IMG/VR virus record: IMGVR_UViG_2551306525_000003
Reading direction: 5' to 3' (one strand)
DNA length: 15,395 bases
Source: a virus
Taxonomy: Duplodnaviria; Heunggongvirae; Uroviricota; Caudoviricetes
This document shows positions 1 through 712 of this stretch, in pieces. Position 1 is the first letter of the stretch, and each line of letters opens with the position of its first letter. Made by a program: the position numbers and the translations under genes. Below the pieces are notes generated by a model that saw only the letters and a list, made by a program, of their open reading frames with translations, was not told the DNA's origin and ran no database searches.

Positions 1-180
1 TGACTTCACGTATGACATCCCCCCGGGGCCGTAAGCCAGCCCCAGACGTAGCAGAGTTGCAGCATCACGAATTTCGCGGCGGCGGGTTAGAGCCCCGGCA
101 TTACGTGCCGAAGTATCCAGTTCTTCGGGCTTACCAATATGGGCCAGAATTGCTGACCAGTTATCGTGAGAGTAATTCAT
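1..180 (-). CDS. insL: IS186 transposase (InsL-like), N-terminal 60 codons only; continues beyond window start
   Basis: ATG at 180..178 on the minus strand. Translation is MNYSHDNWSAILAHIGKPEELDTSARNAGALTRRREIRDAATLLRLGLAYGPGGMS..., matching my recollection of the IS186 transposase N-terminus. It is absent from the ORF track because it runs off the window edge. Confidence 0.7.
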   Translation of the reverse strand, partial: MNYSHDNWSAILAHIGKPEELDTSARNAGALTRRREIRDAATLLRLGLAYGPGGMSYVKS

Positions 181-235
181 CGGCACGTTAAATCATATCA
201 GGCGTAATACCACAACCCTTAAGTTAGCGCTTATG
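1..235 (-). mobile_element. IS186-like (IS4 family) insertion sequence, partial; one end at about 235, the rest lies beyond the window start
   Basis: The minus-strand sequence read from 235 downward begins CATAAGCGCTAACTTAAGGGTTGTGG, which I recognise as the IS186 terminal inverted repeat, and is followed by the IS186 transposase N-terminus. The gpK reading frame stops 3 codons into this sequence. The other end and any target-site duplication are outside the window. Confidence 0.75.
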
Positions 236-712
236 CCAGTCATCCCCGCGATGAAAATCCGGCATCTCAATCCCCGCCAGATGATAAGCATCCCGGAACA
301 GCGTGTAACAGTCCGTCACCCCGTGCTCAAAGCGCCGCCCGGTGAGATGCGGCACACAGCGGAACTTGTGAATCGCCCCCCGGCAGACCAGCCACCACGG
401 CAAATCACTCTGCACCTGCAGCCGCCGGTCAGCCTCACTCAGCCAGGGCAGACCACCGGGATGACTGTGGACCAGTGCCACAATCTCACCCTGCATCTCT
501 GCCTGCAGCCAGTCCTCCGGAGCCATCCGGAAATAATCCTCCGGCTCACCGGAAATATTCACGCAGGGAAAATATCTTTCCCCCTCCGGTGCTCTCACCA
601 CGAAGCCGCACGACTCCGCTGGCGCACATCGCCGGGCGTGCGCCAGAATCGCTGATTCTGTCTCTGTCATGGGATTACTGCGAAAGTTTGTTAATGGAAA
701 GGAAGCCGCCAA
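224..712 (-). pseudogene. K: Tail assembly protein K (JAB/MPN plus NlpC/P60 family), 3' end truncated by the IS186 insertion
   Basis: Translation carries a JAMM motif (HSHPGGLPWLSEADR) and the NlpC/P60 catalytic-Cys region (DCYTLF). The frame then terminates as ...DDW-HKR-stop, with the last three codons and the stop encoded by IS186 end sequence. Its position directly after gpL matches lambda gene order. The start is uncertain: TTG at 712, or ATG at 670 four nt after the L stop. Confidence 0.75.

What the first reader, a model, noticed from the sequence alone, without database searches (positions are those of the whole stretch)
1..712. IS186-like element inserted into the 3' end of tail assembly gene K
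The gpK frame is intact through the JAMM motif and the NlpC/P60 catalytic-Cys region. It then switches abruptly to IS186 terminal sequence, gaining three IS-encoded codons and a stop. The downstream tail-tip genes (I, J, tail fibre) are therefore separated from the operon by the IS. Together with the V/G/T loss this is a second independent inactivating lesion. IS186 also brings outward promoter activity and is itself a marker of the host lineage.
Basis: partly seen in the sequence, partly recalled or inferred. Interest (0 to 1): 0.55.

Follow-up and report, generated by a model that had tools for sequence, protein, structure and literature searches.

The report
IS186 insertion splitting prophage tail gene K
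An ordinary copy of the common E. coli jumping gene IS186 has landed in the middle of tail-assembly gene K of a lambda-like prophage that had also lost its tail-tube genes, so this is a routine case of a decaying prophage and not a new kind of element.

Summary
Window 1-235 is the transposase-proximal end of IS186 (PGAP label IS421), 234/235 identical to reference copies. Homology to gene K starts at 236. On the minus strand K' (670->224) has 145 of 247 K codons, then His-Lys-Arg and TAA from the IS inverted repeat.

An exact-protein look-up traced the window to avian pathogenic E. coli O78:H9 ST23 strain IMT2125 (HE964769.1). There the other IS186 end, a perfect 10-bp target duplication (GGATGACTGG), the rest of K, and genes I and J follow. 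This is therefore a simple transposition, with nothing deleted. The window starts at a 100-N scaffold gap inside the IS.

The break separates the JAB domain and predicted Cys121 from His187/His199 of the NlpC/P60 domain. The 1,399-bp U'/V/G/T' deletion is also real.

An independent sequencing run (SRR30348805), 100% identical over 12 kb, carries both lesions. None of 5,426 complete E. coli genomes does.

I found no support for an IS186 outward promoter. Loss of I/J transcription is untested.

The target is only a half-match to the IS186 consensus GGGG-N6-CCCC.

Verdict: real, correctly interpreted, ordinary, low interest.

The parts
1..235 (-). Transposase-proximal (IRL) end of IS186/IS421. 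It is the first 235 bp of an element of about 1,338-1,339 bp. The window starts at the edge of a 100-N scaffold gap inside the IS.
   Evidence: 234/235 identity plus one gap to the IS421 copy in strain 2452. 99% or better matches in 2,706 records. The N run is directly adjacent in the source record.
213..235 (.). 23-bp terminal inverted repeat of IS186 (CATAAGCGCTAACTTAAGGGTTG read inward on the minus strand).
   Evidence: The same 23 nt occur in inverted orientation at the other IS end in L003 11039-11061.
1..180 (-). 5' part of the IS186 transposase gene (InsL-type, IS4 family), with its ATG at 180. It points the same way as K and the late operon. A 1-base deletion at window 12/13 shifts the frame after codon 55.
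   Evidence: Translation is MNYSHDNWSAILAHIGK.... The gap is seen in the alignment. Only 1 of 2,766 records has an exact match over window 1-60, the stretch that contains the gap.
236..245 (.). Target-site duplication, K-proximal copy (CCAGTCATCC on the plus strand, GGATGACTGG in K sense).
   Evidence: The second copy flanks the other IS end in the source record, L003 11062-11071.
224..670 (-). Truncated tail assembly gene K' (148 aa): K residues 1-145, then His-Lys-Arg and TAA encoded by the IS inverted repeat. It keeps the JAB/MPN domain and the predicted NlpC/P60 Cys121. It lacks His187 and His199.
   Evidence: Annotated in the source as CCJ45185.1 'putative tail assembly protein'.
675..1373 (-). 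Minor tail protein L (232 aa), intact, immediately upstream of K.
   Evidence: PF05100.
1383..1712 (-). Minor tail protein M (109 aa), intact.
   Evidence: PF05939.
1712..4777 (-). Tape measure protein H (1,021 aa as called in the source record), intact.
4749..5288 (-). U'-'T fusion ORF (179 aa) that spans the 1,399-bp deletion junction at window 4923/4924. The deletion removes the last 36 nt of U, all of V and G, and the 5' part of T. This is the other inactivating lesion.
   Evidence: blastn of the window against E89 with the E89 annotation. The junction is absent from complete genomes. The fusion protein is on 7 contigs.

Best explanation
A copy of IS186 (IS4 family; PGAP label IS421) transposed by ordinary cut-and-insert into gene K of a lambda-like prophage in avian pathogenic E. 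coli O78:H9 ST23 strain IMT2125.

It entered after K codon 145 and duplicated 10 bp of target (GGATGACTGG). K is now split into two pieces. The first is a 148-aa product with the JAB/MPN domain, the N-terminal third of the NlpC/P60 domain including the predicted catalytic Cys121, and a 3-residue IS-encoded tail. The second is an orphan 3' piece that holds His187 and His199.

gpK is required for lambda tail assembly, so this very probably abolishes tail-tip assembly. That step is inferred from lambda genetics and was not tested here.

The same prophage has separately lost V, G and most of T (tail tube and its chaperones). It therefore cannot build tails for two independent reasons and is a defective, decaying prophage.

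Shown: the identity of the IS, both junctions, the duplication, the domain split, the deletion, and co-occurrence of both lesions in a second sequencing run. Inferred: loss of K function, the completeness of the IS interior (unsequenced), and a recent date.
For: - IS identity and end.
- K homology from 236 and the 247-aa intact homologues.
- Source record, with the other IS end, the 10-bp duplication, and the K remainder, I and J directly after it.
- Ten other natural IS186 copies all have 10-bp duplications of the same geometry.
- Domain split. K' matches only Prok-JAB. The C-terminal piece matches only NLPC_P60 profile positions 45-105. Intact K has both domains.
- His187 and His199 align with the His residues of RipC and MepS. 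Cys121 aligns with the MepS Cys.
- gpK is required for tail assembly: PMC12617516.
- Both K halves are 100% identical to an intact O26 K, so there has been no decay since the insertion.
- Independent confirmation. The Logan contig from SRR30348805 is 100.000% identical to window 206-12288. It includes the junction and ends 30 nt into the IS.
- Deletion.
- Strain identity.
Against: - About 812 bp of the IS interior are replaced by 100 N in the only long record. A complete, active IS186 is therefore assumed and not seen.
- The visible transposase 5' part has a 1-base deletion 12 nt from the gap edge. If real, this copy is defective.
- The target (GGGG-ATGACT-GGTG) matches only one half of the published IS186 consensus GGGG(N6/7)CCCC (PMC5009759). 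In that study only 7 of the 59 recovered insertion sites departed from the flanking palindrome, each by only one or two bases.
- No experiment shows that K' is non-functional or that the prophage is non-inducible.
Confidence: 0.95

Rival explanations
1. Assembly or scaffolding artefact. The K-IS junction is a chimeric join created when a draft assembly was scaffolded through a repeat, and K is really intact in the strain.
For: The source record is a gapped scaffold (15 contigs, 32 gaps). There is a 100-N run inside the IS and an apparent 1-base error 12 nt from the gap edge.
Against: Both junctions are present and flanked by a perfect 10-bp direct repeat of K sequence, as IS186 transposition produces. 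An independent run (SRR30348805) gives the identical junction.
Confidence: 0.01
2. IS186-mediated deletion or rearrangement. The IS end marks a breakpoint where the distal tail genes were lost or moved, and not a simple insertion.
For: From the window alone only one IS end is visible and nothing downstream of K can be seen.
Against: In the source record the second IS end is followed by the duplicated 10 bp. K then resumes at codon 146 with no base lost, followed by I and J.
Confidence: 0.02
3. Selected or regulatory insertion. The IS supplies a promoter that drives the K remainder, I, J and the tail-fibre genes independently of the late operon. Alternatively, the split K still works as two pieces, so the insertion is functional and not decay.
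For: The genes downstream of the IS appear intact as far as sequenced. Both K halves are undamaged. The insertion is at a non-consensus site, which could hint at selection.
Against: No promoter-like site was found in the visible 291-bp distal IS end. No paper in the library links IS186 with outward promoters. The K remainder has no in-frame ATG near its start; the frame opens after a TAG inside the IS end and the first GTG lies about 20 codons into the K remainder. The prophage also lacks V, G and T, so downstream tail-tip genes have no tube to join.
Confidence: 0.03

Closest known systems
IS186 / IS186B / IS421 of E. coli (IS4 family)
   Same: 99.6-100% nucleotide identity over the 235 + 291 visible terminal bases. 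The 23-bp inverted repeats are identical. The 10-bp target duplication matches ten other natural copies. One flank has the G-rich half-site GCGGGG.
   Different: The other flank lacks the CCCC half of the GGGG(N6/7)CCCC consensus. The interior is unsequenced. There is a possible 1-base frameshift in the transposase.
Phage lambda tail assembly protein K (gpK; PGAP 'C40 family peptidase', 247 aa with the upstream start)
   Same: Same gene order H-M-L-K-I-J. Same two-domain architecture, Prok-JAB + NlpC/P60, in the intact homologues.
   Different: Here the protein is cut after residue 145 and carries an HKR tail. The catalytic His residues are encoded on the far side of the IS.
IS186 insertion in the lon promoter of E. 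coli B, and other loss-of-function IS186 insertions seen in evolution experiments
   Same: Same element causing loss of function by simple insertion at a G/C-rich site.
   Different: Those are recurrent hot-spot insertions at perfect consensus sites, often under selection. This site is a half-site and is not recurrent: 0 of 5,426 complete genomes in either orientation.
Defective (cryptic) lambdoid prophages of E. coli that decay by IS insertion and deletion (for example DLP12, Rac and Qin of K-12; from general knowledge)
   Same: A prophage with an otherwise intact late region but with an internal deletion plus an IS-disrupted structural gene.
   Different: Decay is at an early stage. The other head, tail and lysis genes appear intact, and the flanking K halves show no further mutations.

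Membership tests
IS186/IS421 (IS4 family insertion sequence) | Near-identical nucleotide sequence to reference IS186 copies | tested here: met
   Left 235 bp are 99.6% identical (one gap). Right 291 bp are 100% identical to the IS421 copy of strain 2452. 2,706 records match at 99% or better.
IS186/IS421 (IS4 family insertion sequence) | 23-bp terminal inverted repeats at both ends, in inverted orientation | tested here: met
   CATAAGCGCTAACTTAAGGGTTG at L003 10436-10458, and its reverse complement at 11039-11061.
IS186/IS421 (IS4 family insertion sequence) | Direct target-site duplication of the length typical for the element (10 bp, or 11 by some counts) | tested here: met
   GGATGACTGG on both sides. 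Ten other natural copies all have 10 bp. An 11-bp repeat is reported in PMC12102499.
IS186/IS421 (IS4 family insertion sequence) | Target matching 5'-GGGG(N6/N7)CCCC-3' | tested here: inconclusive
   The site is GGGG-ATGACT-GGTG. One half is perfect and the other scores 0/4. Five copies sampled without flank bias are all perfect (L014, L024, L026, L027, L029). Half-sites do occur among natural copies (L010, L013).
IS186/IS421 (IS4 family insertion sequence) | Full length of about 1,338 bp encoding one intact IS4-type DDE transposase | not testable with these tools
   About 812 bp of interior are replaced by 100 N in HE964769.1. The short-read contig stops 30 nt into the IS.
Lambda gpK-type tail assembly protein (JAB/MPN + NlpC/P60) | Position between L and I in the H-M-L-K-I-J tail-tip gene block | tested here: met
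Lambda gpK-type tail assembly protein (JAB/MPN + NlpC/P60) | N-terminal JAB/MPN domain with the JAMM motif HxHx7Sx2D | tested here: met
   Pfam PF14464 covers residues 4-99, E=1.4e-14. The motif is H68, H70, S78, D81, read. It aligns to the JAB protein 2kks.
Lambda gpK-type tail assembly protein (JAB/MPN + NlpC/P60) | Complete C-terminal NlpC/P60 domain with Cys and His residues on one polypeptide | tested here: not met
   K' gives no NLPC_P60 hit. The domain (residues 111-224 in intact K) is cut at 145. Cys121 is on K', while His187 and His199 are on the orphan piece. The locus is a disrupted member (pseudogene) of the family.

The most novel reading that the evidence does not exclude
IS186 may be able to integrate using a single GCGGGG half-site, with that conserved half lying next to the transposase-proximal end. 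This would mean that target recognition is asymmetric, and not the symmetric palindrome recognition currently described. The K insertion and two other natural copies (L010, L013) fit this. My sample of deviant sites was biased by the way it was retrieved, so it does not test the idea.
Probability: 0.1. Interest if true: 0.3.

Novelty: already known. Interest (0 to 1): 0.1.

Why it matters
It matters little beyond housekeeping.

- This prophage of APEC O78 strain IMT2125 cannot make tails, for two independent reasons. It should be annotated as defective, with K as an IS-disrupted pseudogene and not as a 148-aa 'putative tail assembly protein'.
- The K::IS186 junction and the U'-'T deletion junction are absent from 5,426 complete E. 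coli genomes. They are present in a few sequencing runs that are nearly or fully identical, so they could serve as PCR or k-mer markers for this narrow ST23 clone.
- The non-consensus target is a minor data point on IS186 site choice.

Tried and rejected
- Exact junction 25-mer searched in GTDB species representatives, JGI metagenomes and IMG/VR: no matches.
- Same-orientation junction and a synthetic opposite-orientation junction against 5,426 complete E. coli genomes: none. The site is not a recurrent hot spot.
- Other truncated K proteins from the 90% cluster: none ends in HKR.
- One of them (P0005, 142 aa) looked like a second event at the same spot. It turned out to mark contig ends or an N gap in draft assemblies, and complete genomes with that allele have intact K.
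- Literature support for an IS186 outward promoter: none found.
- saiSree 2001 (PMC95536) and the IMT2125 genome paper (PMC3584874) are not held in the library. Accession-number searches found nothing.
- I considered inferring asymmetric IS186 target recognition from six fetched copies. I rejected this because those hits were ranked partly on similarity to the first 5 flank bases of this very site, which biases the sample.
- BLASTP of K against MepS aligned only the His region. The Cys alignment comes from a local Smith-Waterman alignment to a MepS sequence that I recalled from memory, so it is only supportive.

Full report
**What is in the window**

All genes of the window lie on the minus strand. 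They form the late region of a lambda-like prophage: lysis genes, terminase, portal, protease-capsid fusion, Z, U, tape measure H, M, L and K.

Window 1-235 aligns end to end with the terminus of an IS4-family element that PGAP labels IS421. This is IS186/IS186B. The only difference is a single-base gap at window 12/13.

The 23-bp terminal inverted repeat occupies window 213-235. The transposase ATG is at 180 on the minus strand, giving MNYSHDNWSAILAHIGK.... The transposase therefore points the same way as K.

Homology to gene K begins exactly at 236 and is 99.8% identical to K genes of many E. coli prophages.

**The truncated K**

Read on the minus strand from the ATG at 670, the frame gives K residues 1-145, then His-Lys-Arg and TAA. 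These last four codons are the first 12 bases of the IS. The ATG at 670 lies 4 nt after the stop of L and is the start annotated in homologues.

- The end coordinate 712 belongs to the longest mechanical ORF with a TTG start, not to the gene.
- Intact K is 247 aa, so the break lies 59% of the way along and not at the 3' end.

Pfam places Prok-JAB at residues 4-99 and NlpC/P60 at 111-224 of intact K. K' retains only the JAB hit. The severed piece (146-247) retains only the distal NlpC/P60 profile positions 45-105.

The JAMM motif (H68, H70, S78, D81) and the predicted nucleophile Cys121 are upstream of the break. His187 and His199 align with the catalytic His residues of RipC and MepS and lie downstream. 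The MepS sequence was recalled from memory, so the Cys assignment is supportive only.

**Where the window comes from, and the other end of the IS**

An exact-sequence look-up of the 148-aa K' product found one long record, HE964769.1 of assembly GCA_000308975.2, 4,754,148 bp.

Two papers identify this assembly as avian pathogenic E. coli O78:H9 ST23 strain IMT2125. One gives the same length, with 15 contigs and 32 gaps (PMC4313913). The other names GCF_000308975.1 as IMT2125 (PMC12565876).

In that record the visible IS left end (235 bp) is followed by 100 N. Then come 291 bp that are 100% identical to the other end of IS186, in the proper inverted orientation. Next is GGATGACTGG, and K then resumes at codon 146 without a missing base. 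Genes I and J follow.

The same GGATGACTGG precedes the IS. This is a perfect 10-bp target-site duplication.

The window therefore begins at the edge of a scaffold gap. About 812 bp of IS interior are unsequenced.

**Is it a typical IS186 insertion?**

Ten other natural copies that I fetched all carry 10-bp duplications with the same geometry: two bases of each flanking tetramer plus a 6-bp core.

The published target is GGGG(N6/7)CCCC. Only 7 of the 59 new insertion sites recovered in that study departed from the flanking palindrome, each by only one or two bases (PMC5009759).

Here the target is GGGG-ATGACT-GGTG. One half is perfect, including the extended GCGGGG, and the other matches at none of four positions.

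Five copies retrieved without flank bias are all perfect. Half-sites do exist among natural copies (L010, L013).

The site is not a hot spot. No complete E. coli genome among 5,426 has IS186 at this position in either orientation. The junction is also absent from GTDB representatives, JGI metagenomes and IMG/VR.

**The second lesion, and dating**

Against the closest intact relative (strain E89, 99% identity), the window lacks 1,399 bp between positions 4923 and 4924. The missing stretch covers the last 36 nt of U, all of V and G, and the 5' part of T. What remains is a 179-aa U'-'T fusion ORF, with a 2-bp microhomology (CA) at the junction.

This deletion junction is also absent from complete genomes. 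The fusion protein, however, occurs on seven contigs:

- The contig from run SRR30348805 is 100.000% identical to window 206-12288. It carries the same K'-IS186 junction and ends 30 nt into the IS, as short-read assemblies do at repeats.
- Two other runs (SRR18429115 and ERR8651815) share the deletion with 2-3 mismatches. Their contigs stop before K.

The junction is therefore confirmed independently, and both lesions mark a narrow clone. Which came first cannot be told from these data.

Both halves of K are 100% identical to an intact O26 K. This argues that the insertion is recent.

**Consequences**

The split separates the predicted Cys from the His residues, and the 3' piece has no in-frame ATG near its start. 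Loss of K function is therefore the likely outcome. This is inferred and was not tested.

With V, G and T also gone, the prophage cannot build a tail tube either.

- I found no paper that links IS186 to outward or hybrid promoters.
- A consensus scan of the visible distal IS end found no outward promoter-like site.
- Physical separation of I and J from the operon is shown. Transcriptional separation is not. Q-antiterminated late transcription (established lambda biology) may read through the IS, and would also read into the co-oriented transposase gene.
- IS186 as such is present in 2,202 of 5,426 complete genomes, so only the specific junction has marker value.

**Rivals**

- *Assembly artefact.* Excluded by the two junctions with a matching duplication and by the independent run.
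- *IS-mediated deletion.* Excluded by the uninterrupted resumption of K.
- *A selected, promoter-bearing insertion or a functional split K.* Not excluded, but nothing supports it.

**Verdict**

This is a real and correctly interpreted feature, but an ordinary one: a known IS in a known gene of a decaying prophage. It is already known in kind and of low interest. The only mild curiosity is the half-consensus target site.

Noticed in passing
window 12/13 (L003 10658-10659): One A is missing from the IS186 transposase gene (GTAATGAC becomes GTATGAC). This shifts the frame after codon 55. It lies 12 nt from the 100-N scaffold gap, and only 1 of 2,766 records (strain MB51) has an exact match over window 1-60, where the gap lies. 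It is probably an assembly-edge error, but it could be a dead transposase.
   Followed up: partly
window 4923/4924; ORF 4749-5288 (-): The 1,399-bp deletion removes the U 3' end, V, G and the T 5' part. It has a 2-bp microhomology (CA) and leaves an ORF that joins U (about 122 codons) to the natural stop of T. It is absent from 5,426 complete genomes but present on 7 contigs, including three independent SRA runs.
   Followed up: yes
L003 14727-14826 (source record, beyond the window): A second 100-N gap falls inside or after gene J. The 'short' 914-aa J in the source annotation is therefore an assembly gap and not evidence of a third lesion.
   Followed up: partly
L005 3426-3436; ends of L006, L007, L008: Three unrelated draft assemblies have contigs that end, and one scaffold has an N gap, about 7-10 nt upstream of this IS186 insertion point in a different K allele (...CATCGCGG / ...CGCGGGGA). 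Complete genomes with that allele have intact K (L009). The cause is unknown; it could be a mosaic boundary between co-resident prophages or an insertion.
   Followed up: partly
window 236-251 and L003 10420-10435 / 11062-11077: The IS186 target is only a half-match to GGGG-N6-CCCC. The good half (GCGGGG) lies next to the transposase-proximal end. Two other natural half-site copies (L010, L013) have the same arrangement, but that sample was biased by how it was retrieved.
   Followed up: partly
L020, L022, L023, L025, L028, L030: Exact IS186 end sequences occur on short contigs of assemblies labelled Marinobacter, Prevotella MAG, Actinomyces MAG, Kocuria, Aerococcus MAG and Corallococcus. This is most likely E. 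coli contamination of those assemblies.
   Followed up: no
window 180-226: The K' stop (224-226) and the IS186 transposase ATG (180) lie on the same strand, 43 nt apart. Late-operon transcription after prophage induction would therefore run straight into the transposase gene. This is an inference only.
   Followed up: no
L004 17692-19199 (strain E89): The closest intact-tail relative used for comparison has its own lesion: its portal gene is annotated as frameshifted.
   Followed up: no
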